This document shows, piece after piece, positions 10,193 to 60,900 of a DNA stretch of 64,000 nucleotides (position 1 is the first letter of the stretch; each line of letters opens with the position of its first letter). This DNA comes from a virus. The DNA is taken from IMG/VR virus record IMGVR_UViG_3300045988_130630; one strand, 5' to 3'. Under the pieces are notes generated by a model that saw only the letters and a list, made by a program, of their open reading frames with translations, did not search any database and was not told the origin of the DNA. The translations under genes and the position numbers were made by a program.

Positions 10193-11455
10193 TTACATAT
10201 GTTCAGCTAATGCCGCAATTTTAGAACGATGAATTTGTTTTAATTCAATTTCACCATATACATCTGATCCTCTAAATACTTTAGAAGCACGACGCATACC
10301 ATTATTGGCTCCAGCAAAAGCAATATCATCAACTTGGGTTTTATCATCGCCATCAATGATACAAATACCATCTTCACCAATACGCTGCAAGGTCAATTTC
10401 ATAAGCGAAATATCCATATTTTGTGCTTCAGAAATATAAATACCTGCTTTCATTCCAGTAGTGTCATAACCACGGATATCACTTAATGGTAAAAGAACTA
10501 ATTGTTCGTTTTCAATCATGCGCTCAACTGCTAAGCGACCACCAAATTTACTAATTAAAAGATTGCCAATTTGGCTATCAAGTAATTTTTCATCTCGAGT
10601 GCCAGGATAAAAACCTAATTTCGCGGAATTTTTAGTGGCAATTGTATTACAAAATACAATGATTTTATCAATGCGCCCACGTTCAAATTGATTCATTAAA
10701 AATGCTAAACTTAAATAAGTTTTACCTGAACCCGCAGGGCCACGAACCATAGTAATAGTATTATTAATAAGACTATCTGCGAATAAAGCTTGATAAGGGT
10801 CATCTTTCATAGGTTTTACTTTTCCAAATTGAGTAGAATCAAAATTACCAAATGAAATAGGGCGATAACCATCACCAGTATAACATACTTTATCAACGAT
10901 ATTATTATCTTTATCTTTTATAATTAAATATTCATTAATATGTAAATTATAAACATTTTCATATTGGTTAGAATAAAAATCAGCCATTTCCGCATTTGAC
11001 ATTGTAATTTCCACATATCCTTTATATTCATCAATTAATTCTTCATCTATGCTTTGAATATAATCTTTGTCAAAGAAAAGATTTGCCATTGCTTTTAATG
11101 ATAAATCATTAGTGATAAATATGGTATTTGGATGGGCTAATTTAAATTCAATTGCGGTAGATAAAATTTTACTATCATCAGTAATTGGAAGGTTAGAATC
11201 TTCAATTATTTTTAATCCATCTAATTTAAATAGTTGGATAATATAATTATCAGGGTTTTCATTCAATTTATGTAATACTTTACGAGCTGAATATTTAACA
11301 TCAGCATCTTTATTTGATGATGTTTTTATATTTTCTAACTCTTTTAAAGTAATAGAAGATATAACAGGTGTATATTCTTCCTCTTGGAGAAATGTATCAA
11401 CCGCCATCAGCAAACTACAAGTATCATAAAATTTATACATCTTCGTACTCATCAT
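10193..11455 (-). CDS. phoH: PhoH-like ATPase with N-terminal PIN domain
   Basis: Walker A motif GPAGSGKT. PhoH-family C-terminal region. N-terminal PIN-like acidic residues. 420 aa. A terminator hairpin follows at 10155-10190. Confidence 0.8.
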   Translation of the reverse strand: MMSTKMYKFYDTCSLLMAVDTFLQEEEYTPVISSITLKELENIKTSSNKDADVKYSARKVLHKLNENPDNYIIQLFKLDGLKIIEDSNLPITDDSKILSTAIEFKLAHPNTIFITNDLSLKAMANLFFDKDYIQSIDEELIDEYKGYVEITMSNAEMADFYSNQYENVYNLHINEYLIIKDKDNNIVDKVCYTGDGYRPISFGNFDSTQFGKVKPMKDDPYQALFADSLINNTITMVRGPAGSGKTYLSLAFLMNQFERGRIDKIIVFCNTIATKNSAKLGFYPGTRDEKLLDSQIGNLLISKFGGRLAVERMIENEQLVLLPLSDIRGYDTTGMKAGIYISEAQNMDISLMKLTLQRIGEDGICIIDGDDKTQVDDIAFAGANNGMRRASKVFRGSDVYGEIELKQIHRSKIAALAEHM

Positions 11456-11747: not shown

Positions 11748-12185
11748 TTAATTCTTGGCCTCATTACGATGTTTACGAATACTCTGGTAAAATTTATCTT
11801 TTTCTTTTATGATATAATTTAATTCATCTTTAGCATTTTTAATAGAGTCATTTACATAACTAATATCTTCTTGTCTTTGGCGGATTTGCCGTTGAAGCAT
11901 TTTATTTTCATAGGATTTAGGATTAAAATATTTGCTTCTATTCATTGAATAATATAATTGATTTAAAGCTCTAAGTTGAATTTTTAATTCTTTTTTATAT
12001 GCTTGTAAAACTTTAATATAAGCTCGTCTATAAGCAAAATTACACCCAGTTTTTTCATTTGCCATATCCATATCATCAGGATGACATTTAGCGATACCAT
12101 AAATAATATTACCATCTTTGTCTTCAATTAAACAAGAAGCTTCACCTGATTCAGGGTTATAACTAAATAAAGGTTCTTTTTTCAA
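11748..12185 (-). CDS. hypothetical protein (145 aa)
   Basis: ORF with RBS. Last gene of the radical SAM cassette. Confidence 0.35.
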   Translation of the reverse strand: MKKEPLFSYNPESGEASCLIEDKDGNIIYGIAKCHPDDMDMANEKTGCNFAYRRAYIKVLQAYKKELKIQLRALNQLYYSMNRSKYFNPKSYENKMLQRQIRQRQEDISYVNDSIKNAKDELNYIIKEKDKFYQSIRKHRNEAKN

Positions 12186-12251
12186 AGTAGTAGAACTCCT
12201 TTCTATCTATTTCTATAAATATATTAACATAAAAATTATTAAAAAGCAAAA

Positions 12252-12282
12252 AAATAAAGGCGAAAGTATTATACTTTCGCCT
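12252..12282 (-). terminator. rho-independent terminator after the radical SAM gene
   Basis: aaaggcgaaagtattatactttcgccttt hairpin plus T-run. Confidence 0.55.
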
Positions 12283-12287
12283 TTATT

Positions 12288-13580
12288 TTAATTCAATAAT
12301 TCATCTATCCACTCTTGTTTCATATTATTCGGAAATTCTTCGTCTATATTATGTTTTTTATAATATTTATTCCAAAATTCAATGTTGGCAAGAGCGCGAG
12401 CTTTATGCATAGGACAAATATAAGTAACTCTTTTATTAAGAATTCCAGTATCTTGATAATTATATGCTTGACACCAAGCACAACCATTAGCAATAGGACA
12501 TTCACGACATTCGTCAGAAGATTGAGTATAAGAATTAATTGCTTTTAATTCTTTTGTTAATTGTTTTTGTTTTTCTGTTGTTGCTATTTCATTTTTATTT
12601 ACATTTCCTATAATAAGAGGTGGGACGGAATCGCCCAGAGCATCTTCCATATATCGTAAGCAGGGGTATAAATTACCAGTATAATTCATAGCAATCATAC
12701 TTCCATTTCCGCCGCACCAATTCTATAGATCATCTTTATTAGTCCAATCTTTTGGTCTAAATAATTTCAAATCTGGATATTCAAAAAATGAAATATATAC
12801 ATCTTCTTCTAAATTATTATCAAGGAGATATTGTCCTAATTCTTGTAATTGTTTATAGTAAATTTTGGCGTGTTCTAAAGTCCAACCTTTTTCAAAAATT
12901 ACATTCCCTAATATAGAAGTAAATCCTATATCTAAAAGAGCTTTTACGGCATCATTTAAATACATAACATTATCAGGAGATAAAGTAATTTTTGAGCAGG
13001 GATATTCTCCAGTTTTTTCTCGCCAGTCTTTTATCGCTTTTACTACAATATCATAACTACCAGAGCCATCAGGAAATTTTCTACAAGCATCATGCAATTC
13101 TTTATTACCATCAATACTAATAGAAACAGATAGCCATTGCTTATATTTATCTAAAAATTTTTGTACTTTTGGATCAAAATATAATGTTCCATTAGTACAA
13201 ATTAAAAATCTTGTAAAATAAATTAATGGACTGTTCATTTCAATTAATTTAGAAATTGTATAATCCATTACTTTATCTATTAAATCTAAATTTAAAAAAG
13301 GTTCTCCACCAATAAAATCAAAGACTAAACCTATAATATTATCTGGGTCAAAGTAATCATTTTTCTAAGGATTTACTATTAACATATCAATATATTTTTT
13401 AGCTGTTTCAAAATCCATTAAATGATTTTTTTTACAAGTTTGATAACAATAACTACATCTTAAATTACAAGCGTCAGTGACCTGTAAAGTTATATCAAAA
13501 ACTTTATCGCTTTCATTTTTCCATAGTTCTGGATATAATCTTTGAATTGTATCACTATACTATTCGAATTTACGTCTCAT
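12288..13580 (-). CDS. radical SAM enzyme with SPASM/twitch C-terminal domain (3 in-frame TAG)
   Basis: Hand translation from ATG at about 13580: MRRKFE*YSD...TDACNLRCSYCYQ (CxxxCxxC). A TAG follows at about 13370 and another at 12723, joining the ORFs 12723-13268 and 12288-12698. C-terminal CPIANGCAWCQ...CPMHK cysteine cluster. TAA stop, then a terminator hairpin. Confidence 0.65.
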
Positions 13581-13885
13581 TCAGCATTATCATTAATTGT
13601 TATTGTAATAATTTTTGCTTGGAAGTCAATACTCCAATAGGCATTATTACCATATTTTTCTAAATCATAATATTTTCCAACTTTATTTCTAATTTTATCA
13701 TATTCAATAAATTTTTCAACGTATTCTTGATGATATCTTTTATAATTATCAGTATCCATATTATTAAATGAAGTGCTATTCATCATATAAGTAATAATAC
13801 TTTGACGAGCAAGAAGATCTTGATAAGCTCGTTCTAATTTATCATTTAATTCTACATTATTAGCATTTACTGTAATTGTTTTCAT
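13577..13885 (-). CDS. hypothetical protein (102 aa)
   Basis: AAAGGAG RBS. Its TGA stop overlaps the ATG of the radical SAM gene (ATGA), which suggests translational coupling. Confidence 0.4.
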   Translation of the reverse strand: MKTITVNANNVELNDKLERAYQDLLARQSIITYMMNSTSFNNMDTDNYKRYHQEYVEKFIEYDKIRNKVGKYYDLEKYGNNAYWSIDFQAKIITITINDNAE

Positions 13886-13911
13886 TATTTTTCTCCTTTT
13901 TATCTTATAAA

Positions 13912-14626
13912 TTAACTTTTTAAAATTTTAGAATATAAAGACTTTAAAGCAGTAATTGCTTTCTGCATTTCAGATTTAGTACAGACATTTCCATTATAAG
14001 AAGTGTTCTACATTTTAGAAATATTTGTGAATATTTCATTTTTTAAGTTTGTATTAACTTTACTGTTAGAAGAAACTTTTGTAGGTAAAGTACTATATCC
14101 ACGTCTAGATAATTCTTTATTTAACATAGTATAAATATTTGCAATATCAGCAGCATATAAAACGATTCTTAAATTAATAGAATTATAAAGATTTACATTA
14201 GCTGAAGTGGTACATCCATTATCGCAGCCTCCCGTACAATTGCCAGTACAAGCAGAACAGTCATGCCTACAACTAGCACTGCATCCAACACATCCGCCAG
14301 AACAGCTTCCACTACAATCGGTGCGACAACTAGCACTACATCCAACACATCCGCCAGAACAGCTTCCACTACAATCGGTACTGCAAGAACTGCCACATCC
14401 AGAGCAACCTCCATCACATCCGCCTGAACAACTATTACTACAAACTCCTCCGCATCCGGAGCAACTTCCATCACAGTCTCCTCTACAACTTCCTTGGCAT
14501 TGGCTAGTGCCGCAAGTTTCACACATAGAACAATTACCGCCACAACCATGGTCACATCCATTACTACAGCTTACAAAGCAAGTTCCGACACAACCCTATG
14601 TAGTACAATTAGCCATATGTTATGTC
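13912..14626 (-). CDS. Cys/Gly/Ser-rich repeat protein (CSGSCSGGCVGCSASCRxDCSG repeats), 2 in-frame TAG
   Basis: AGGAGG RBS then MANCTT*GCVG...(CxxC repeats)...NISKM*NTSYNGNVCTKSEMQKAITALKSLYSKILKS. 63-nt tandem repeats are visible at 14220-14460. TAA stop. Confidence 0.55.
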
Positions 14627-14636
14627 CTCCTTACAT

Positions 14637-15087
14637 TAAATTTTTTACAATATTTTCTAATTCATCTAATTTGTTAAATAATTGATATTTAATAAATATG
14701 CTACTTAATAAAGAATAATATCTTAAAGAATTATTTTCTTTTATTTTATAATTCTTAAAGAATTCTATATTATTTTCTTTTGTGTCTGAATCTAACTTTA
14801 CTTCTAAAAATAGATAATCAATAGCAGTTAAAACTTGAGTATTATTTTTTAGATAACTAATTTTATTAATGAAATCTTGTAATTTGTCAATCTATTCTAA
14901 ATTTCTAAGATTTTCAAAATTTTGAATATTATAAAAAATTATTGCAATAGTTTCTTGATATTCGATATCAGAAATTTCATTTAACTATAAAATCAATTCA
15001 TTGTCATCAAATAAAATACCATTTTCTAACTCTTTAGAAACTTTAATTTTTAAAAGTAAAACATCTTTTTCGGATAGAGACATTTTA
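14637..15087 (-). CDS. hypothetical protein (about 150 aa, 2 in-frame TAG)
   Basis: AAGAAAGG RBS then MNKMSLSEKDV...ELIL*LNEIS...NLE*IDKL...KNLM. Ends with TAA directly before the RBS of the Cys-rich gene. Confidence 0.35.
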
Positions 15088-15274
15088 TTCATCCTTTCTT
15101 TAATATAAATTATAGCAAAATTTTTTTGATTTTGCAAATTTTTTATTTACCTAATTTATTTATAAATATTGGGTTTATTTTTAATGAGAAATGGCCTTTT
15201 AGGTTTTTGCTAAAAAAATTTCTATGGGTGTGAACAATTGGAACTACGGCCGATCGCGTTGATCAGGGATAAAA

Positions 15275-15312
15275 AAAATAGACACTATGAAATAATCATA
15301 GTGTCTACTTAA
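15275..15312 (-). terminator. rho-independent terminator after the flotillin gene
   Basis: tagacactatg...catagtgtcta hairpin followed by T8. Confidence 0.55.
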
Positions 15313-15313
15313 A

Positions 15314-16699
15314 TTACTTATTCAATGCCTTTGTAAGCATCTCTTTGATGTCGATGCCATTTTCAGACATTGCTTCAATGACCTGGTTTGCGGAACCCAT
15401 AACATCCTTTACAAGACGAGCAGAGTTTCCATCGCCATACTGGACGATCTTATCCACATTGGTAAGAGGGGCTGCCGCATTTGCCACGATTTGAGGCATT
15501 GCATTGAAATACATTTCAATGATAGAAGCTTCACCCATCTTCTTTTGTGCTTCTGCTTTCTTGTCGATTGCTGTAGCTTCGGCTTCACCAACAGCCGCAA
15601 TACCAGCAGCTTTCTGTTCGGCTGCGAACTTTTCTGCTTCAGCGCGAGCACGCATAGCTTTTGCTTCCTGCTCGATCTCATAAGCCTTAGCTTCAGCATC
15701 CTTCTGACGACGAATCAGGTCTGCTTCAGCCGCCTTTTCCGCAGCATACTTATCAGCATCAGCCTGCTTACGAACCAATGCAGTCAGTTCGTATTCCTTA
15801 AGCTCGATTTCTTTCTGCTTCAGTTCAGCTTCACGCTCAGCCTTTGCGATATTCGCGTTAGTTGCCGCAACATCCTTGAGCTTACGCTGATTTTCAGACT
15901 CAATACCAGCAGCCGCTTCTGCCTGAGCTTTCTTGGTATCAGCTTCCTGCTTCAACTGAGCCTGCTTAATAGCAAGATCGTTATTGCGGATTGCGATTTC
16001 CTCAGCGGCCTTAACCTTAGCGTCATTAGACTGCTTAGCATTTTCCGCACGAGCGACCTCAATCTCACGTTCCGCATTGGACTTAGCAATTGCCGCGTTC
16101 TTGCTAATCTGAGCGACATTATCAATACCGAGGTTAGTGATAACATCATTATCATCAGAGAAGTTCTGAACGTTAAAGGTAATCAGCTCAAGACCATAAC
16201 GTGCCAGATCAGGAACTGCATTCTCCTGGACTTTCTCACTAAACAACTTACGATCGCTAACCATATCAGTCAACTTCATCTGACCGACGATCTCACGAAT
16301 ATTACCTTCAAGAAGGTCGTTAATCTTACGAGAAATTTCATCACGGCCTACGTTAAGGAAGTTCTGAGCGGCGAGCGCAATCATTTCAGGATCTCTACCC
16401 ACACGAACAGAAACCGTAGAATCAACACGAACGTTAATGTATTCGGCAGTAGGGACCGCAGATCCAGTCTTTACATCAATTTGGATAGCTCCGAGAGCAA
16501 GCTTATCCAAACGTTCGAAGAAAGGAATCTTCAAGCCAGCTTTACCAACAAGAATTCGAGGTTTCTTATGGACACCACTGATGATATAAGCCATATCAGG
16601 CGGAGCCTTTACATAACCATTGAGGAAAATGAAAATTACCAGTAGCGCGATAAGAACTACAGGAATCGCCGGAAGGATAAATGAAATAATAGCGGGCAT
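15314..16699 (-). CDS. flotillin / SPFH (band-7) domain protein
   Basis: N-terminal TM segment, then SPFH domain (GAIQIDVKTGSAVPTAEYINVRVDSTVSVRVG). C-terminal Ala/Glu/Lys-rich coiled coil (flotillin-like). 461 aa. GC is visibly higher than neighbouring genes. A terminator hairpin follows. Confidence 0.8.
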   Translation of the reverse strand: MPAIISFILPAIPVVLIALLVIFIFLNGYVKAPPDMAYIISGVHKKPRILVGKAGLKIPFFERLDKLALGAIQIDVKTGSAVPTAEYINVRVDSTVSVRVGRDPEMIALAAQNFLNVGRDEISRKINDLLEGNIREIVGQMKLTDMVSDRKLFSEKVQENAVPDLARYGLELITFNVQNFSDDNDVITNLGIDNVAQISKNAAIAKSNAEREIEVARAENAKQSNDAKVKAAEEIAIRNNDLAIKQAQLKQEADTKKAQAEAAAGIESENQRKLKDVAATNANIAKAEREAELKQKEIELKEYELTALVRKQADADKYAAEKAAEADLIRRQKDAEAKAYEIEQEAKAMRARAEAEKFAAEQKAAGIAAVGEAEATAIDKKAEAQKKMGEASIIEMYFNAMPQIVANAAAPLTNVDKIVQYGDGNSARLVKDVMGSANQVIEAMSENGIDIKEMLTKALNK

Positions 16700-50377: not shown

Positions 50378-52963
50378 TTAAGCCTTTCCACCGTTAAGGA
50401 TAAGTTCATCACCAGCAGTTTGAACTAATTTATTAACATTTATATTATTAACAGTAGCTACACCAGTGTCAGAAACACTAATAGCATTTTCAGCATCAGA
50501 GCTGACAATTAAACCTGCGCGAGCTGCGGTAGCAAGAGGAATATTAACAGTCTTTTCGCTAATTGCGATTTCAGTACCATTAACTTGAATCTTTTCAATT
50601 ACATTAGGCTGTGCAGCATCCCACTGGGCGATTTTCTCAGAAGTAATTCCTGCATAATCAGCTTTCTTTAATTCAGCGATTGCATCAGCATTAGCTTTTT
50701 CAGCAGTTTCAGCGCGAGTGGTCTCAGCAGCGATTGCATCAGCATTAGCTTTTTCAGCTGCTTTAGCACGAGTAGCTTCATCACTAATAGCAGTGGCATT
50801 GGTACCTTCAGCAGTTTTAGCACGAGTAGCTTCATCTTCGACTGCTTTCTTATTAGCCGCGATATCTTTAACCATTTGGTCTGCAGCAGAACCATGTGTG
50901 GTGATATAAGTTTGAATTTCCTTTAAAGTATCAACTGCGGCGTCGCCGACTTCTGCGGCTGCAAGGAAGGCATCAACACGAGATTTAACACCAGCAATAG
51001 CAGTAGCATTTGCTTGTTCTTTACCTTCTGCACGTGTTTGTTCAGCAGCAACGGCATCTTTAACAGTCTTAGCTACAGAGCCTTCAACAGTATCAATACC
51101 ATTTAATTTAGCAATAGCATCTGTATTGGTCTTAATACTTGCTTTAACAACACTATCATCATAAGTAGCAGCCTTTTGAGCATCAGCAATCATCTGAACG
51201 ATTGTCTTGTCTGCTGGAATGGTGCCAACCTTATCACTTAATGTATTAACAGCAGTCTGAGCATCAGTGCCAGCCTTCTTTGCATCAGCAACAGCAGTAT
51301 CAACCTCAGTCTTAACAGCATAGCCCTTAGCTTCGACTTGAGCCATAGTAGCCTTGGAGGCAGCAAGTTCATAAGCTTCTTTTACAGTTCCGGTATGTCC
51401 TTCACCAAGGATAGCGGTTTTAGCGGCAGCCACTTTAGTATCAGCATTAGTGCCTGCGGATGTAATAGCTTCAGACTTAGCTGTAGCAATTGCACCACTT
51501 ACACTATCAACATCAACTTTGCCTTCAAGAGTAGCAACTTTCTTACCAATAGCAGAAGTATCACCAACTAAACTATCAGCATAAGCCTTAGTTGTTCTAC
51601 CAACTTCGTCTGCATAAAGTTTAGCACCATGAATAGTTTCACTATCTTTAGTATCAACATCAGTCTGGCCATCTTCACCGCCAAGAGTATGACGTAAATT
51701 ATCAACTGCGGTATTAACTGTGCTTACTGTAGCAGCTTTATTAGTGCCAGAATTATATTCACCATCAAAGGTTAAATTATTTTGTTTACTATCAAGAGCA
51801 TCCTGAAGACCATCAATTTTGGAAATACCAAGAGTAGGAATATCGGAGACCGCAAGATTTTCGCCTTTAGTTACAAGACCTTTGGCATCATAGGTAATCT
51901 TTGTGGCAGTACCAGCGGTAATGTCTTTGTTAGCAACAACAGCAGCATTAGCTTTCTTTTCCACAGCAGCAATAGCAGCCGTATTATCACTATCAGCTTT
52001 GTCAAGAGCTGTCATCTTAGTATCATAAGCAGATTTATCAACAAAATTACCAGCATCTTGCTTTGCATTCCACTTAGCAATGTCTTCGGCAGTAATGCCA
52101 ACAGCAGGAAGCTTCTCAAGAGTTTCAACACGTCCAGCAAGAGCAGTTAAATCCGCAGCCTTAGCATAATCGCCAATCTTGAGAGCTTTAATAGCGTTAT
52201 CAATATAAGTTTTTACTTCAGGAGATTGACCTTCAGCAGTACCAAATCCTTTAAGAATAGCTTTTAATTTATTAATGTCGCCAGTTAAACCATTAACAAT
52301 ATCGGGATGGCCCGCAACCCAATCAACTAATTCTTTAAAGGTGTCAATAGTACCATTTTCAGTAGCTTTGGTAGCAAAATCGTTAATAGCATCATTAACA
52401 GCTTTAGTAACTGAACCTTCACCAGTGCCATTCAAAACACCAATAGCATCTTCATTAGTCTTAATACGTTTACGAAGACCAGCAGTATCATCAGCACCGA
52501 CGACAGCTTCAAGAGCATCTACATCAGTCTATGCTGCAACAGCTTTATCATCGGCAATTTTAGCGTCGGCAACGCCTTTATCTGCTTGCTTCTGGGCAGC
52601 TTCAATTAGAGCATATAAACCAGTAGCAACAGTTTCACCATGAGTAGCAGAGCCAACTTTTTCAATAAGAGAAGCAACTTGACTTTGAAGAGTAGAAACA
52701 TCAGAGGCAAGATCGCCAGAAGCAGTGGTAGAAGCAAGTTTAACAAGAGTACCAGCCTCATTGCTAATCATATAAGCTTCGCATTTATTATCAGCAATTA
52801 AAGTTAAAATCTGACCAACATAGGCGGTAGCGCCAGATTTTGCATAAGTTTCGAGTTCTGCTTTATTATACCATACCGCAGTAGTATCAACAGGAGCAGG
52901 ATTACCACGTTTAATAGAAAGTGGGAAACCCATATAAGCAGCATCATTCATAATAACAGCCAT
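50378..52963 (-). CDS. long fibrous (Ala-rich coiled-coil) tail fibre-like protein (1 in-frame TAG)
   Basis: ORFs 52529-52963 and 50378-52435 are in the same frame and joined by a TAG at about 52529. About 860 aa with AKANADAIAAETTRAETAEKANADAIAE repeats. TAA stop plus terminator hairpin at 50337-50362. Confidence 0.55.
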
Positions 52964-52986
52964 ATTATATATTTACCTCCTTCAAA

Positions 52987-54234
52987 TTAGCCGATGGTGA
53001 CAGCATAAGTCTCGCCAGCATCAATAGAAGCAGGCTGATAAACATATACATCATATTTAGCCGCAGTATAACCATTAGCACCTTCAACATCAACTTGAGT
53101 GCCCTGTTTTACGAATAGAGCAGTAACATCAGCATTGAGTGCGCTAGGCATAAGAACCTTAGTAATCTTGCGACCAGCAGGAACGGCAACAATAACTTTC
53201 TTCGCGCCAGCACCAGCACCAAAAGTAGTGAGAGCGCCAGTACCACTAGCCTGTTTATGCGCAAGGGCGCGAATATTGACAGAGTTTAGAGCCATATCAG
53301 CACTGGACATGGGACCCCAGAACATATAACGGACACCAGTTAGAGTTTTGGAATTTGCAGTAGCACTACCAGCTTTAATCTTACCTTCAGGATAAGGATT
53401 ACCAAGATTAGTCTTAGGAACCGCACCCTCATTATAGGTAGCCTTGGCGGTAATCTTTTTGGAAGTGGCCTCAGCAACAACATTCTCAAAAGAACCAGTT
53501 GCAGTGGACTTACTATCAGCAACACCAGTACAATTGACTTCCCAAGTTTGAGCAGTGATACCAGTAGCAGGACCATAGGTATAATTACCAGTAGACAGAG
53601 CTGCAGTATAAGTCAAATTTTTCTTAGTGCCAATTTCAAAAGTACCAAAACCGCCTTCGGCTGTAAAAGATACAGCAGGATTAGACTTAGAAGGATTGGC
53701 CTCCTAAGCCATTAAAGAAGAGAGTACCTATTCAACATTCTTACCCTTAGCAGCAAATTTAGCAGAGCCAGAGGGCTGAGCAAGAGTACCAATGGCAACA
53801 GTATAAGTAATATCATCATCAAAATACACATTATCAGCACGATAATTGCCATCAAAAGCGGCCCAATTAGCACCATTATAGAAATACGCAGTACGAGAAG
53901 TTTTACCTTCAACAAACGCATTTTCAACAACAGCCATATCTCCCTGAACAGGGGTGGCAATTGTTGCTAACATATCGGCATCAGTCTTACCTTCAGTTAG
54001 AGTTAAGACAGAAACTTTATCACGATTGCTATTAATAATAGATTTAATAGCATTCTCATCGACACCGGAGTAACTAAGTTCGTTCCAAGCTTTAGTACCA
54101 TCACCAATCTTAATTTTACCAGTGTCAACTTCAATACCCATTTCACCTTTTAACAGCACAGGGTTTTTTTCAACCCAAGTGGCTGCTTCATCATTGCGGA
54201 GTTGAATACGGGTTTTTAAAGTATTTCCAGCCAT
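52987..54234 (-). CDS. structural protein with the N-terminal anchor domain (2 in-frame TAG)
   Basis: MAGNTLKTRIQLRNDEAATWVEKNPVLLKGEMGIEVDTGKIKIGDGTKAWNEL, then ...KNVE*VLSSLMA*EANPS... joining to ORF 52987-53616. TAA stop. Confidence 0.55.
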
Positions 54235-54262
54235 ATTAAAATTTCCTCCTTAATAAAAAAAA

Positions 54263-54596
54263 ATTAAGCATTTCCGCCATCTATTAATGAATACTAAGAA
54301 GTTTTACCAATTTCAGTAATACTATTATCTTCATTAACCAAATAGGGAGTCCATTGTTTATTCTAAAAAATTGAAATTACTTCACCCTTATAATCATATT
54401 TTGCGATCCAAGTGCGAGCTTCAATTATAGAATCAAAAGAAGTCTTTTTGGTAATATATTTTAAATTACCTTCATCATCATAATAATAAGCCTCTGACTA
54501 ATTTTCATCAGTTGTTAAAATTAGACTTTCTTTTGGAATAATACCTTGTTTGATGCTGGATTTAATTTTATTTTTATCTGCATAGACAACATTAAA
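54263..54596 (-). CDS. hypothetical protein (3 in-frame TAG)
   Basis: GGAGGG RBS then MAFNVVYADKNKIK...DEN*SEAYYYDDEG...SIF*NKQW...KTS*YSLIDGGNA, TAA stop. Confidence 0.3.
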
Positions 54597-54603
54597 CGCC
54601 ATA

Positions 54604-55855
54604 TTATCCCTCCTTTATTATATTATAATAATTATTTACTAATTTTTGTTTATATCCAGAAGCAATAAATTCTTCGGGAAGAGGTTTATTAAATTTTCCA
54701 CCTTTAATAATAATTTCGGCATTATTTATACTAGAAAGGATTTTATCACAAGTAGTTTCAAAAATTCCTCCATTAATAATTAAAATACCAGCATTAATAT
54801 CATCATTATTCTTTTTACATTGGATAACTTCATAACCATCATCAGTATAGAAATAACCATCATTTATAGTTAAACTTTTACCAACGTTATAAAGCATACC
54901 ATAAAAATTACCACCATTAATTTCACAAATACCAGCATCATCATTTTTAATAGTAGTATAAGTATTAATAAAAGTACCACCATTAATAATTAATTTAGGA
55001 TATTCCGCGGACTCGCCTAAATGGTATTGAGAAAGATAATCGTAATATCCATTCTCAATCATACTAGATAACCCGCCCGGAGAGGAGAATATTCCATCAT
55101 AAATAGACATTTCACCATGATTTACTATTACATAATATCCATTACCTTTTTCATCAATAGAACGTTTATACTCACCATTTATAATAGTTGTATTTCCATT
55201 ATTCTCAATAGATGCTTTACCATGTTTATTACATTCAACACATCCTTCTCCCGAAATAATTAAAGAAGCGTTATTATTAATTTTAACTGGATTGTCTTCA
55301 TTATTTAAGATACTAATATTATTTAAATCAATATTAATATTTTTTCCTTTTGGAATATCAATATTTTTAACTGTTTTCTACAAAATTATAGTATCATTAT
55401 TAGAAGCATTTTGAATTGCTTCTTCAATAGTAGAATATTTTGTTCCATTAATTTCTACTTCATCAGCAGGTAGTCCTTGGTCTTCACCTTTAATTTTTAT
55501 AACTTCAACAGTTCCTTGAGAAGATTTACCTTGTAATAATCTCCATTTTTCACCATCATAAATATAAAAATCTTCACCAACTAAGCACATTGTACCTTCT
55601 TTAGTATTTGGATCTTCAGGTAAAGATTCTTTCTATCCAATAAAATAAGCGACATCACTAAAATATTTATTTATTTCATTCTTTATCTCATTTTCTGCAA
55701 GATAAGGAAGATTATTCCACTAATGAATACCATCGCCAACCTTTAATCGACCAGTATCTATTTCAAAACCAGGCTCGCCAGGTCCTAAGAGAATATTTTT
55801 CTCAATCCAAGAAGCTGCCTTTCCGCGTTTAAAATAGAACTTTGATTTCATATAA
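54604..55855 (-). CDS. tailspike-like protein: N-terminal anchor domain plus parallel beta-helix repeats (at least 3 in-frame TAG)
   Basis: MKSKFYFKRGKAASWIEKNILLGPGEPGFEIDTGRLKVGDGIH*WNNLPY, then repeated INGG(T/N/I)F-type beta-helix rungs as in ORF 54604-55110. Confidence 0.5.
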
Positions 55856-59477: not shown

Positions 59478-59550
59478 GCAGAGGAAGTGGGAGTCGAACC
59501 CACACCCAGTGATTTAGAGTCACTTGACCTAGCCGTTAGCCGATTCCTCG
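59478..59550 (-). tRNA. suppressor tRNA with anticodon CUA (reads UAG); class I, discriminator G73, CCA not encoded
   Basis: CGAGGAA TC GGCT AACGGCTA GGTC A AGTGA CUCUAAA TCACT GGGTG GTGGG TTCGACT CCCAC TTCCTCT G. Anticodon stem AGTGA/TCACT 5/5 and loop C-U-CUA-A-A. G73, a weak 1:72 pair and U35 are compatible with a Gln-type origin. Confidence 0.6.
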
Positions 59551-60689: not shown

Positions 60690-60900
60690 GGAGTTTACAG
60701 GATTTGAACCCGTATACCTTTCTAATGAAAGAATTGCTGTGTGTGTCTAAATGGTCCGAGTGGAGCGACTCAAACGCTCGGCCTCCTGAACCCTAGTGGC
60801 AACAATGAGATTCGAACTCATAACAGCTATTAACTGACCTCGGGAGCGACCCTCAGACATTACCATTCTGTCATCTTGCCAAATCAGGCGTTCTATCAAC
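60690..60900 (-). tRNA. two or three tRNA-like sequences (one class II, about 60812-60895) not fully resolved
   Basis: T-arm signatures GGATTTGAACCC (60706), GAGATTCGAACTCAT (60816) and ATGAG-TTCGAAT-CTCAT with acceptor GGCAAGA/TGTTGCC. Anticodons could not be assigned confidently by hand. Confidence 0.3.

What the first reader, a model, noticed from the sequence alone, without database searches (positions are those of the whole stretch)
12288..15087. Late-expressed radical SAM/SPASM enzyme adjacent to a highly repetitive Cys-Gly-Ser-rich protein (RiPP-like or crosslinked structural protein cassette)
Five co-oriented genes are each separated by only a few nucleotides: ORF150, the Cys-rich protein, ORF102, the radical SAM gene and ORF145. 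The ORF102 stop overlaps the radical SAM start. The Cys-rich protein, the radical SAM gene and ORF150 all need TAG read-through.

The Cys-rich protein is built from 21-aa CSGSCSGGCVGCSASCRxDCSG repeats (63-nt DNA repeats) followed by a non-repetitive C-terminal domain.

SPASM radical SAM enzymes typically install thioether or Cys-derived crosslinks on Cys-rich substrates (sactipeptides, ranthipeptides, SCIFF) or mature proteins such as anSME. A phage-encoded pair of this kind is not a standard feature.
Basis: partly seen in the sequence, partly recalled or inferred. Interest (0 to 1): 0.7.

Follow-up and report, generated by a model that had tools for sequence, protein, structure and literature searches.

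The report
Phage CXXX-repeat radical SAM cassette
A stop-codon-recoded giant gut phage carries a complete three-gene system in which an iron-sulfur radical enzyme most likely cross-links a protein with 35 regularly spaced cysteines; the enzyme family is already catalogued but unstudied, and it turns out to be a common late-gene module that usually sits between the tail-fibre and lysis genes in phages of gut Clostridia.

Summary
On the minus strand, ORF150, a 234-aa Cys-rich protein, ORF102 and a 430-aa radical SAM/SPASM gene form one tight unit. It runs from a promoter-like site to a strong terminator directly after the rSAM stop. ORF145 lies beyond that terminator. TAG read-through is real and TAG most likely encodes Gln. 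The tandem unit is 57 nt/19 aa x1.9, not 63 nt/21 aa.

The enzyme passes the curated NCBIfam cutoff for TIGR04115, the "radical SAM peptide maturase, CXXX-repeat target family" (405 vs 350 bits). The substrate has 35 Cys at CX2-3 spacing. ORF102 belongs to the conserved small partner family.

The pair is not unusual for phages. Relatives occur in at least 540 IMG/VR contigs and 258 bacterial species genomes, and 148 of 153 analysable loci keep an adjacent CXXX protein. The flanking genes are typically tail fibres upstream and endolysins or holins downstream.

The window's substrate is a domain-order permutation of the commonest form. In related small phages, a variable tip domain is swapped after the Cys array.

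Best reading: a late-expressed, probably thioether-cross-linked protein associated with the tail or with lysis, rather than a classical exported RiPP. The chemistry and role are not demonstrated. It is a new member of a known but uncharacterised kind.

The parts
15109..15138 (-). Promoter-like site (TTTGCA-18-TG-TATAAT) upstream of ORF150
   Evidence: 10/12 match with an extended -10. The scan as a whole is not enriched over shuffles (34 found vs 29 expected), so this is only suggestive.
14631..15092 (-). ORF150 (150-153 aa; 2 in-frame TAG at 14985-14987 and 14892-14894). First gene of the unit, lineage-specific, function unknown.
   Evidence: No family hit. No counterpart in other cassettes.
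13912..14616 (-). CXXX-repeat substrate protein, 234 aa. Residues 4-135 hold 35 Cys at CX2-3 spacing. Residues 136-234 form a conserved ExxRR helical domain. In-frame TAG at 14596-14598 and 14008-14010.
   Evidence: Weak TIGR04114 hit of 14.9 bits. The C-domain is homologous to the N-domain of the majority architecture: hhalign 98.2%, E 3.4e-14.
14269..14379 (-). 57-nt (19-aa) tandem duplication inside the Cys array (CSGSCSGGCVGCSASCRxD x1.9)
   Evidence: Copy number varies among relatives: 196, 234 and 253 aa.
13577..13885 (-). ORF102, the small conserved partner protein (distant TIGR04116-like). Its stop overlaps the rSAM start.
   Evidence: TIGR04116 is the top family but sub-threshold; 57/64 small ORFs abutting the rSAM gene belong to one family. 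AF2 pLDDT 91.8; no RRE-like fold; the matches are uncharacterised gut-phage proteins.
12288..13580 (-). Radical SAM/SPASM maturase, 430 aa, TIGR04115 family. CX3CX2C at residues 38-45 plus 8 invariant auxiliary Cys. In-frame TAG at 13560-13562, 13365-13367 and 12723-12725.
   Evidence: 405.3 bits vs cutoff 350. Radical_SAM, Fer4_12 and SPASM domains; invariant Cys; closest solved structure is 5wgg.
12251..12289 (-). Terminator-like hairpin (18-bp stem plus T-run) immediately after the rSAM stop; end of the unit
11748..12185 (-). ORF145, the downstream neighbour beyond the terminator. Lineage-specific; probably not part of the system.
   Evidence: (phrog_32438, unknown function).
8828..10129 (-). 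Endolysin (Phage_lysozyme2 + Amidase_2) with 8 in-frame TAG. It places the cassette next to the lysis region, as in related prophages.
59478..59550 (-). Suppressor tRNA (anticodon CUA) needed to translate the cassette
45540..46634 (-). Tail-fibre-like protein ending in the ...LLWIDT...LKY...W..VPVAWT motif. In small prophages this motif ends the gene directly upstream of the CXXX substrate gene, so it is a possible physical partner.
   Evidence: The link is an inference only.

Best explanation
The region encodes a complete CXXX-repeat radical SAM maturation system: a substrate, a small partner protein and a TIGR04115 SPASM maturase. These genes, plus a lineage-specific first gene, sit in one late operon of a phage of up to about 197 kb that reads TAG as Gln.

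Shown:
- The enzyme's family membership.
- The adjacency and conservation of the three genes.
- Invariance of the Cys array.
- The need for TAG suppression.
- The family-wide position between tail-fibre and lysis genes.

Inferred mechanism:
- Once the suppressor tRNA allows translation late in infection, the cytoplasmic enzyme binds the substrate. The enzyme has one SAM cluster and two auxiliary 4Fe-4S clusters. It lacks the fused N-terminal recognition domain of CteB.
- Binding is through the substrate's conserved ~100-aa ExxRR helical domain, probably with help from ORF102.
- The enzyme then works along the 35-Cys CX2-3 array, abstracting H atoms and joining Cys sulfurs to carbons of neighbouring residues (thioether rings). 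My estimate for thioether chemistry is about 0.55.
- The product is not cleaved or exported. It remains a covalently stapled protein that is released at lysis or built into the virion, most likely as a tail-fibre-associated rod or adhesin. My estimate for virion association is about 0.4.
For: Enzyme:
- TIGR04115 scores 405.3 bits (cutoff 350). The next best are PapB 194, SCIFF maturase 134 and QhpD 106; anSME scores only 78.
- CX3CX2C and 8 further Cys are invariant across the family.
- The closest solved structure is 5wgg, aligned from its residue 86 onward.

Substrate:
- 35 Cys; the Cys columns are 33/35 invariant while the X positions vary.
- 148/153 loci have a CXXX ORF on the same strand within 6 kb.
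- Family grammar is 2358 CX3C and 957 CX2C intervals, with X mostly Ser, Gly or Thr and a median of 44 Cys per locus.

Partner: 57/64 small ORFs abutting the rSAM gene form one family. The model is confident.

Recognition domain: the window's C-domain equals the majority N-domain (hhalign 98.2%), with E33 and R37 invariant and R36 nearly so (ExxRR core).

Operon: promoter-like site and two flanking terminators.

Late timing: in-frame TAG plus tRNA-CUA, and an adjacent endolysin with 8 TAG. The paper 10.1101/2021.08.26.457843 reports recoded stops in structural and lysis genes.

Phage module:
- Both Caproicibacterium copies lie in prophage tail/lysis regions. Other contexts show BppU_N upstream and Amidase_2 downstream.
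- Every functionally named family among the 25 commonest PHROGs for the '-1' genes is tail fibre or tail.
- Downstream Pfam hits are dominated by Amidase_2, Amidase_3, GH25, CHAP and holins.

Structural role:
- The substrate gene starts 8-20 nt after a tail-fibre gene in many loci.
- In 29 near-identical phage contigs (compared pair: rSAM 99% identical) the domain after the Cys array is swapped, divergent, absent or split off, as with receptor-binding tips.
- No peptidase or exporter family is among the 25 commonest Pfam families of the sampled downstream genes.
Against: - No biochemical data exist for any member, and I found no paper on the system.
- Thioether chemistry is extrapolated from relatives that score well below their own family cutoffs.
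- The X positions are mostly Gly, Ser and Thr rather than the Asp/Glu acceptors of PapB and QhpD.
- The window's substrate has no tip domain. Its cassette lies about 30 kb from the tail-fibre genes, next to a PIN-PhoH gene and the endolysin, so the structural argument is borrowed from other subfamilies.
- The substrate-domain model is only moderate in confidence (pLDDT 63.5).
- ORF102 shows no similarity to known RiPP recognition elements, so its role is a guess.
- The promoter scan is not enriched over shuffles.
- Expression timing has not been measured.
Confidence: 0.5

Rival explanations
1. Classical RiPP or bacteriocin. The Cys-rich protein is a precursor whose ~100-aa domain acts as a long leader (a follower in the window). 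After cross-linking, the domain is cut off. The polycyclic peptide is released by phage lysis and acts as an antimicrobial, signal or exclusion factor that benefits the phage or lysogen.
For: The enzyme sits among RiPP maturases such as PapB, SCIFF, CcpM and nif11-type. A conserved non-repeat domain next to a hypervariable core resembles leader/core logic. Phage-borne bacteriocin clusters are known (10.1101/2020.10.01.322628). Lysis would remove the need for an exporter.
Against: No protease or transporter family is among the 25 commonest Pfam families of the sampled downstream genes, and the conserved core is only three genes. Cores reach 144 Cys and 650 aa, far beyond known RiPPs. Some substrates carry a folded, swappable C-terminal domain after the array. 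The gene is tightly juxtaposed to tail-fibre genes.
Confidence: 0.22
2. The Cys array is mainly a metal or iron-sulfur binding, or redox-buffering, protein similar to a metallothionein. The rSAM enzyme would perform a different or limited modification, for example Cys to formylglycine or dehydroalanine, methylation, or a few links only.
For: The composition (Cys 35, Gly 31 and Ser 25 of 135 residues) resembles metallothionein-type sequences. anSME-type chemistry exists in the same superfamily (78 bits). The X residues lack the usual Asp/Glu acceptors.
Against: The strict co-occurrence of this enzyme family with CXXX arrays (148/153 loci) argues that the array itself is the substrate. The nearest characterised relatives make thioethers. 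No metal-handling genes travel with the cassette.
Confidence: 0.12
3. The rSAM gene is an unrelated housekeeping or anti-defence enzyme (NrdG-type activase, viperin-like, or anSME acting on a host sulfatase), and the Cys-rich ORF is merely a neighbour.
For: Weak generic hits to pVip models in PADLOC (42 bits). Distant SPASM rSAM genes occur in SPN3US-like jumbo phages (26% identity).
Against: The score is above cutoff for TIGR04115 and far below cutoff for every other family. The full SPASM Cys set is present. Gene adjacency is conserved over hundreds of loci.
Confidence: 0.03
4. The Cys-rich ORF is a low-complexity artefact or antisense noise.
For: Overlapping alternative-frame ORFs exist in the repeat region.
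Against: The ORF is conserved in all 9 related contigs, with invariant Cys and a conserved C-domain (76/99 columns invariant). It has a good AAGGAGG ribosome-binding site. Its domain is homologous to that of dozens of other substrates across the surveyed loci.
Confidence: 0.01

Closest known systems
CXXX-repeat peptide modification system (NCBIfam/TIGRFAM TIGR04115 maturase, TIGR04114 Cys-rich repeat target, TIGR04116 associated protein)
   Same: The enzyme passes the curated cutoff. The gene order is target, small protein, rSAM. The substrate is a tandem CXXX array. The small partner gives a full-length but weak TIGR04116 match.
   Different: The target and partner fall below the curated cutoffs. 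The substrate has the repeats first and the recognition domain last, which is a permutation of the majority form. It is encoded by a TAG-recoded phage of up to about 197 kb. The system has no published biochemistry that I could find. Its tail-fibre/lysis context is not described in any paper I found.
PapB/PapA (freyrasin) ranthipeptide system
   Same: Second-best family match (194 bits). A SPASM maturase makes several small thioether rings from regularly spaced Cys in a repetitive core. PapB links Cys to Asp or Glu (PMC9413430 abstract).
   Different: Below the PapB cutoff of 340 bits. The acceptor positions here are mostly Gly, Ser or Thr. There are 35 Cys rather than 6. The substrate is a 234-aa protein with a folded domain, not a short leader-core peptide.
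CteB / SCIFF maturase (PDB 5wgg, 5why; the name CteB and its Cys-Thr thioether chemistry are from my own knowledge of Grove et al. 2017)
   Same: Closest solved structure by profile (E 5.8e-31). Same radical SAM core plus SPASM domain.
   Different: The alignment starts at residue 86 of 5wgg, so this family lacks that N-terminal recognition domain. A separate ~100-aa partner protein is encoded instead, and its fold is not RRE-like.
QhpD/QhpC (quinohemoprotein amine dehydrogenase maturation; from established knowledge)
   Same: A SPASM enzyme (106 bits) that installs Cys thioether links in a protein that stays as a structural subunit. This is a precedent for 'cross-linked protein, not exported peptide'.
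   Different: Far below the cutoff of 453 bits. Only a few links, to Asp/Glu. Periplasmic enzyme context. Not phage-borne.
Anaerobic sulfatase maturase (anSME)
   Same: Same SPASM architecture; acts on Cys in a protein.
   Different: 77.8 bits vs cutoff 349. No sulfatase nearby. The family co-occurs with CXXX arrays instead.
Covalently cross-linked virion proteins such as HK97 capsid chainmail (from established knowledge); an analogy of function only
   Same: If the structural reading is right, both use post-translational covalent links to toughen a virion component.
   Different: HK97 links are autocatalytic isopeptide bonds between capsid subunits. Here a dedicated radical enzyme would act within one tail-associated protein. 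No homology.

Membership tests
Radical SAM superfamily | CX3CX2C motif binding the SAM 4Fe-4S cluster; Pfam PF04055 above its gathering score | tested here: met
   C38-x3-C42-x2-C45, invariant in the family alignment. PF04055 scores 42.4 bits vs 29.5.
SPASM subfamily | C-terminal 7-Cys motif for two auxiliary 4Fe-4S clusters (CX9-15GX4C ... CX2CX5CX2-3C ... C) | tested here: met
   C289-x12-G302-x4-C307, C358-x2-C361-x5-C367-x2-C370 and C389, plus C166, are all invariant. The Pfam SPASM score of 20.8 is just under the 21.5 cutoff.
TIGR04115 (rSAM peptide maturase, CXXX-repeat target family) | HMM score at or above the curated cutoff (350 bits) | tested here: met
   405.3 bits, E 2.9e-121, model positions 4-359 of 359.
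TIGR04115 (rSAM peptide maturase, CXXX-repeat target family) | Genomic adjacency to a CXXX-repeat protein | tested here: met
   In the window the substrate gene lies two genes upstream. Family-wide, 148/153 loci show the adjacency.
TIGR04114 (Cys-rich CXXX repeat target) | Tandem Cys-Xaa-Xaa-Xaa repeats | tested here: met
   35 Cys; 25 of 34 steps are exactly 4 residues.
TIGR04114 (Cys-rich CXXX repeat target) | HMM score at or above the curated cutoff (20 bits) | tested here: not met
   14.9 bits, E 0.028. The 18-position repeat model is narrow.
TIGR04116 (CXXX repeat peptide modification system protein) | HMM score at or above the curated cutoff (50 bits) | tested here: not met
   13 bits, E 0.084, although the match covers model positions 10-89 of 90. 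Among 46 family members TIGR04116 is the commonest hit (5 members, best E 0.0052), always sub-threshold.
TIGR04116 (CXXX repeat peptide modification system protein) | ~90-100-aa protein encoded between the target and the rSAM gene | tested here: met
   ORF102 overlaps the rSAM start. 57/64 equivalently placed ORFs are homologous to it.
PapB-family ranthipeptide maturase (NF047865) | HMM score at or above 340 bits | tested here: not met
   194.1 bits.
SCIFF maturase (TIGR03974) | HMM score at or above 425 bits; N-terminal recognition domain | tested here: not met
   133.9 bits. The alignment to 5wgg starts at its residue 86.
Anaerobic sulfatase maturase (TIGR03942) | HMM score at or above 349 bits | tested here: not met
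   77.8 bits.
Classical RiPP cluster | Leader/core precursor plus a leader peptidase and/or exporter in the cluster | tested here: not met
   The conserved core is three genes. No peptidase or ABC-transporter family is among the 25 commonest Pfam families for 94 sampled downstream genes. The named PHROG families for the upstream genes are tail proteins. Caveat: only two downstream genes per locus and the first upstream gene were sampled.
RiPP recognition element (PqqD-like RRE) | Winged-helix PqqD-like fold in the enzyme or a partner protein | tested here: not met
Thioether (sacti-/ranthi-) cross-link chemistry | Cys S to C-alpha, C-beta or C-gamma bonds in the product | not testable with these tools
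   Needs mass spectrometry or NMR on the modified protein.
Virion structural protein | Presence in purified particles | not testable with these tools
   Only contextual evidence is available.

The most novel reading that the evidence does not exclude
The CXXX-repeat proteins are tail-fibre-associated virion components. Their Cys-rich stalk would be turned by a phage-encoded radical SAM enzyme into a chain of dozens of thioether rings. That would be the first enzyme-installed, radical-SAM-dependent covalent cross-linking of a viral structural protein. It would be widespread in gut Clostridia phages, with swappable receptor-binding tips, and retained even in a stop-codon-recoded jumbo phage.
Probability: 0.3. 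Interest if true: 0.85.

Novelty: new member of a known kind. Interest (0 to 1): 0.58.

Why it matters
The window adds little that is new in kind, because its enzyme falls inside a curated family. The follow-up shows three things about that family. It has thousands of members. It has no published biochemistry that I could find. It is largely a phage late-gene module wedged between tail-fibre and lysis genes.

Its substrates are proteins with up to 144 regularly spaced cysteines, and some carry swappable distal domains. If the enzyme staples these arrays with thioethers, this would be a new way for viruses to harden or diversify a host-recognition structure in the protease-rich, anoxic gut. It would also be a source of very large polycyclic scaffolds for peptide engineering.

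The question is directly testable. Several cultured isolates carry the cassette: Caproicibacterium, and Neglectibacter timonensis, Desnuesiella massiliensis, Eubacterium pyruvativorans and Anaerobacterium chartisolvens.

Tried and rejected
- Nucleotide search of the cassette against GenBank phages found no match. A protein search found only distant hits, at most 37% identity.
- Literature searches for 'CXXX repeat', TIGR04115, ranthipeptide plus prophage, thioether plus tail fiber, and the SPASM review returned nothing on this system.
- Pfam, PHROG and NCBIfam gave no hit for the substrate domain, ORF150, or the swappable tip domains. The precomputed Pfam family PF27846 on substrate relatives is not in the local Pfam copy.
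- AF2 of the substrate C-domain gave only pLDDT 63.5, a three-helix arrangement. I judged that too weak and too simple for a fold search.
I repeated it successfully with hits from the representative search.
- Fold searches of ORF102 against the PDB gave only generic alpha-hairpin matches. The AFDB library was unavailable.
- I tested whether ORF150 or ORF145 is a fourth conserved component. They are not.
- PADLOC gave only generic viperin-model hits to the radical SAM core, so I dropped a defence or anti-defence reading.
- I rejected the idea that ORF102 is a stand-alone RRE on fold grounds. It may still act as a docking protein or chaperone.
Full report
**1. What is in the sequence**

The reported interval 12288-15087 is read on the minus strand. 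Under the standard code the genes are broken by TAG. Reading TAG as a sense codon restores four tightly packed ORFs:
- ORF150, 14631..15092, with 2 in-frame TAG.
- A 234-aa Cys-rich protein, 13912..14616, with 2 TAG.
- ORF102, 13577..13885, with no TAG.
- A 430-aa radical SAM gene, 12288..13580, with 3 TAG.

The gaps are 14 nt and 26 nt, followed by a 4-nt ATGA overlap between ORF102 and the rSAM gene.

A promoter-like site with an extended -10 lies at 15138..15109. Terminator-like hairpins flank the unit. One, at 15310..15276, follows the upstream SPFH/flotillin-like gene. The other, at 12289..12251, has an 18-bp stem and sits directly after the rSAM stop.

ORF145 (11748..12185) therefore lies outside the unit, about 100 nt downstream. 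The promoter scan is not enriched over shuffles, so the promoter is only suggestive. The two minus-strand terminators sit exactly in the intergenic gaps.

**2. TAG recoding**

- A tRNA with anticodon CUA is at 59478..59550.
- Among nine close relatives from IMG/VR, columns holding TAG in some genomes most often hold Gln in others. Gln is present in 7 of 13 variable columns and Lys in 3.
- A natural 196-aa variant of the Cys-rich protein in the protein database has Gln at both TAG positions.
- About half of the window's ORFs contain in-frame TAG. These include the tail-fibre-like genes and the endolysin, which has 8.
- A published survey reports that recoded stops mark structural and lysis genes and may time late expression (10.1101/2021.08.26.457843).

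'Late-expressed' is therefore a fair inference, not a measurement.

**3. The repeat**

Tandem Repeats Finder reports one array, 14269..14379, with period 57 nt (19 aa), 1.9 copies and 98% identity. It is not 63 nt/21 aa.

Around it the protein is a degenerate CXXX array. It has 35 Cys in residues 4-135, with steps of 4 residues 25 times, 3 residues 7 times and 5 residues twice. The composition is dominated by Cys, Gly and Ser.

Residues 136-234 are non-repetitive.

Among the window and nine relatives, 33 of 35 Cys columns are invariant. That compares with 42 of 100 other repeat columns and 76 of 99 C-domain columns. The 19-aa unit varies in copy number, giving proteins of 196, 234 and 253 aa.

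**4. The enzyme**

The rSAM protein scores 405.3 bits against NCBIfam TIGR04115, 'radical SAM peptide maturase, CXXX-repeat target family' (cutoff 350). It covers the whole model. Every other family is far below its own cutoff:

| Family | Score (bits) | Cutoff (bits) |
|---|---|---|
| PapB | 194 | 340 |
| SCIFF maturase | 134 | 425 |
| QhpD | 106 | 453 |
| anSME | 78 | 349 |

The CX3CX2C motif (C38/C42/C45) and eight further Cys are invariant across 16 diverse members. Those Cys are at positions 166, 289, 307, 358, 361, 367, 370 and 389. This is a full SPASM set.

The closest solved structure by profile is 5wgg (E 5.8e-31). From my own knowledge this is CteB, the thioether-forming SCIFF maturase. 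The alignment begins at its residue 86, so this family lacks that N-terminal recognition domain.

**5. The partner**

ORF102 gives a weak but full-length match to TIGR04116, 'CXXX repeat peptide modification system protein' (13 bits, cutoff 50).
- Across 71 de-replicated loci, 64 have a small ORF abutting the rSAM gene. Of these, 57 are recovered by jackhmmer seeded with ORF102.
- TIGR04116 is the commonest NCBIfam hit among 46 members, though always sub-threshold.
- An exhaustive phmmer search finds 60 representative relatives, nearly all 90-120 aa.
- AF2 gives a confident model (pLDDT 91.8) with topology beta1, long alpha-hairpin, beta2, beta3.
- BFVD gives full-length matches (TM 0.75-0.85) only to uncharacterised ~90-aa proteins of uncultured gut phages.

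**6. The family at large**

The rSAM protein has more than 7,400 database relatives at E<=1e-20. They are about 50% identical to Clostridia proteins named 'CXXX-repeat target family'.

Pattern scans found 258 relatives in species-representative genomes. The 80 loci kept were nearly all Bacillota, mostly Clostridia such as Oscillospiraceae and Lachnospiraceae.

No deposited phage genome has a close homologue; the best is 37% identical.

In 148 of 153 analysable loci, a CXXX-dense ORF lies on the same strand within 6 kb. Family-wide there are 2358 CX3C and 957 CX2C intervals. The X positions are mostly Ser, Gly or Thr. The median is 44 Cys per locus and the maximum 144.

**7. Substrate architecture**

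- The commonest form has a ~105-115-aa N-terminal domain followed by the Cys array.
- The window has the array first and a ~100-aa C-terminal domain. This form also occurs in several bacterial genomes.
- Profile-profile comparison shows the two domains are the same: hhalign probability 98.2%, E 3.4e-14. E33 and R37 are invariant and R36 nearly so, giving an ExxRR core.
- The window protein is therefore a domain-order permutation.
- AF2 of the domain is only moderately confident (pLDDT 63.5) and predicts three main helices.

**8. Genomic context**

- In the Caproicibacterium chromosome the identical enzyme occurs twice. Each copy sits in a prophage region with the order Baseplate_J, tail-fibre genes, an uncalled substrate gene, the partner, the rSAM gene, a small ORF, a GH25 endolysin and membrane proteins.
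- Other members follow BppU_N tail proteins and precede Amidase_2 endolysins at prophage ends.
- For 56 co-oriented genes immediately upstream of the cassette, every functionally named family among the 25 commonest PHROGs is tail fibre, tail collar fibre or minor tail.
- In 24 of 65 loci one of the three upstream genes ends in a shared ...LWIDT..GG..KYYNG..W.....VWG motif.
- For 94 downstream genes, Pfam hits are led by Amidase_2 (14), Amidase_3 (5), PG_binding_1, holins, SH3, GH25, glucosaminidase and CHAP. No peptidase or exporter family is in the top 25.
- In the window the cassette is one gene (PIN-PhoH) away from a Phage_lysozyme2 + Amidase_2 endolysin.
- A tail-fibre-like protein 30 kb away (45540..46634) ends in the same WIDT...W..VAWT motif.

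**9. A clue to function**

I examined 29 near-identical small phage contigs. In the pair I compared, the rSAM proteins are 99% identical and the anchor domain plus repeats 94% identical. The segment after the Cys array varies among the 29:
- a fused ~190-aa beta-rich domain, with alleles only 54-61% identical to each other;
- an unrelated ~125-136-aa domain;
- nothing;
- a separate ORF.

Distal-module swapping of this kind between otherwise identical phages is typical of receptor-binding proteins. It argues that the CXXX protein is a fibre-like virion component with a Cys-rich stalk. These tips have no PHROG or GenBank-phage match. The window's own protein has no such tip.

**10. Interpretation**

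Most likely, the operon produces a protein late in infection whose Cys array is covalently stapled by the SPASM enzyme. The ExxRR domain would serve as the docking element and ORF102 as a helper.

Thioether formation is inferred from the nearest characterised relatives (PapB, CteB, QhpD). I put it at about 0.55.

Several facts favour a full-length cross-linked protein associated with the tail or released at lysis over a classical RiPP:
- no peptidase or exporter was seen in or next to the cassette;
- the size of the arrays;
- the tail-fibre juxtaposition;
- the tip swapping.

I put virion association at about 0.4, a released RiPP-like product at about 0.22, and metal binding or another chemistry at about 0.12.

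**11. Novelty**

The cassette is a new member of a catalogued kind (TIGR04114-04116). It is notable for sitting in a TAG-recoded phage whose related contigs reach 197 kb, and for its permuted substrate.

I found no publication on the system. The family-level picture is therefore the part worth following up experimentally. That picture is a phage tail/lysis-junction module with very large Cys arrays and swappable tips.

Noticed in passing
window 39422-39550 (-): A RAGATH-33 RNA (Rfam RF03102, 126.8 bits vs gathering score 120.4) lies in the tRNA-rich region of the phage.
   Followed up: no
window 59478-59550 (-) and 60797-60880 (-): A suppressor tRNA with anticodon CUA, which ARAGORN labels 'Pyl'. 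Rfam also finds an additional tRNA at 60797-60880 that ARAGORN did not report.
   Followed up: partly
window 15314-16699 (-): An SPFH/Band 7/flotillin-like 461-aa membrane protein directly upstream of the cassette. It has no in-frame TAG, its region has higher GC than the cassette, and it has its own terminator. This is unusual cargo for a phage.
   Followed up: partly
window 10193-11455 (-): A PIN-domain + PhoH-like ATPase fusion, written in standard code, sits between the cassette and the endolysin.
   Followed up: no
window 8828-10129 (-) and 8431-8826 (-): An endolysin (Phage_lysozyme2 + Amidase_2) carries 8 in-frame TAG codons. It is followed by a 131-aa ORF with a hydrophobic N-terminal stretch and no TAG, possibly a holin. 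This fits lysis timing controlled by TAG suppression.
   Followed up: partly
window 45540-55851 (-): Five paralogous tail-fibre-like genes have similar N-termini (M-A-x-x-x-Y/F-x-x-R-I...W...). One (47189-48694) has 10 in-frame TAG. One (45540-46634) ends in the WIDT...W..VAWT motif that precedes CXXX cassettes in small prophages.
   Followed up: partly
window 4617-5303 (-) and 62525-63307 (-): ORFs with GIY-YIG-looking N-termini (IYKI.N..N.K.YIG.S) carry 3 and 5 in-frame TAG. They may be homing endonucleases. I judged this by eye and did not check it against family models.
   Followed up: no
L139-L180 (IMG/VR contigs from sample 3300045988 and others): In near-identical small phages the domain after the CXXX array is swapped, divergent, absent or split into its own ORF. 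This suggests a host-range module.
   Followed up: partly
L014 2888-6317: A TAG-recoded phage-like contig carries a second, shorter rSAM gene (312 aa). It lies upstream of two substrate genes (169 aa with the domain and a few CXXX; 114 aa with 22 Cys), the partner and the TIGR04115-type rSAM gene.
   Followed up: no
L010 and L011 (Caproicibacterium CP135996.1, 1318302-1329621 and 855248-866567): Two prophage regions in one chromosome carry the identical rSAM protein. The gene caller missed the substrate gene and instead called a wrong-frame 193-aa ORF. This is a likely systematic annotation problem for CXXX genes.
   Followed up: partly
P0133, P0135, P0162 and other substrate relatives: The protein database assigns a newer Pfam family, PF27846, to the substrate of the majority architecture. 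It is absent from the local Pfam copy, so I could not read its name or definition.
   Followed up: partly
A3 downstream gene set (L021-L172): Two loci have a reverse transcriptase (RVT_1) just downstream of the cassette. Others carry a Tad2-like anti-Thoeris domain, a PARG domain or a CdiA-CT RNase domain. These are accessory cargo at the same tail/lysis junction.
   Followed up: no
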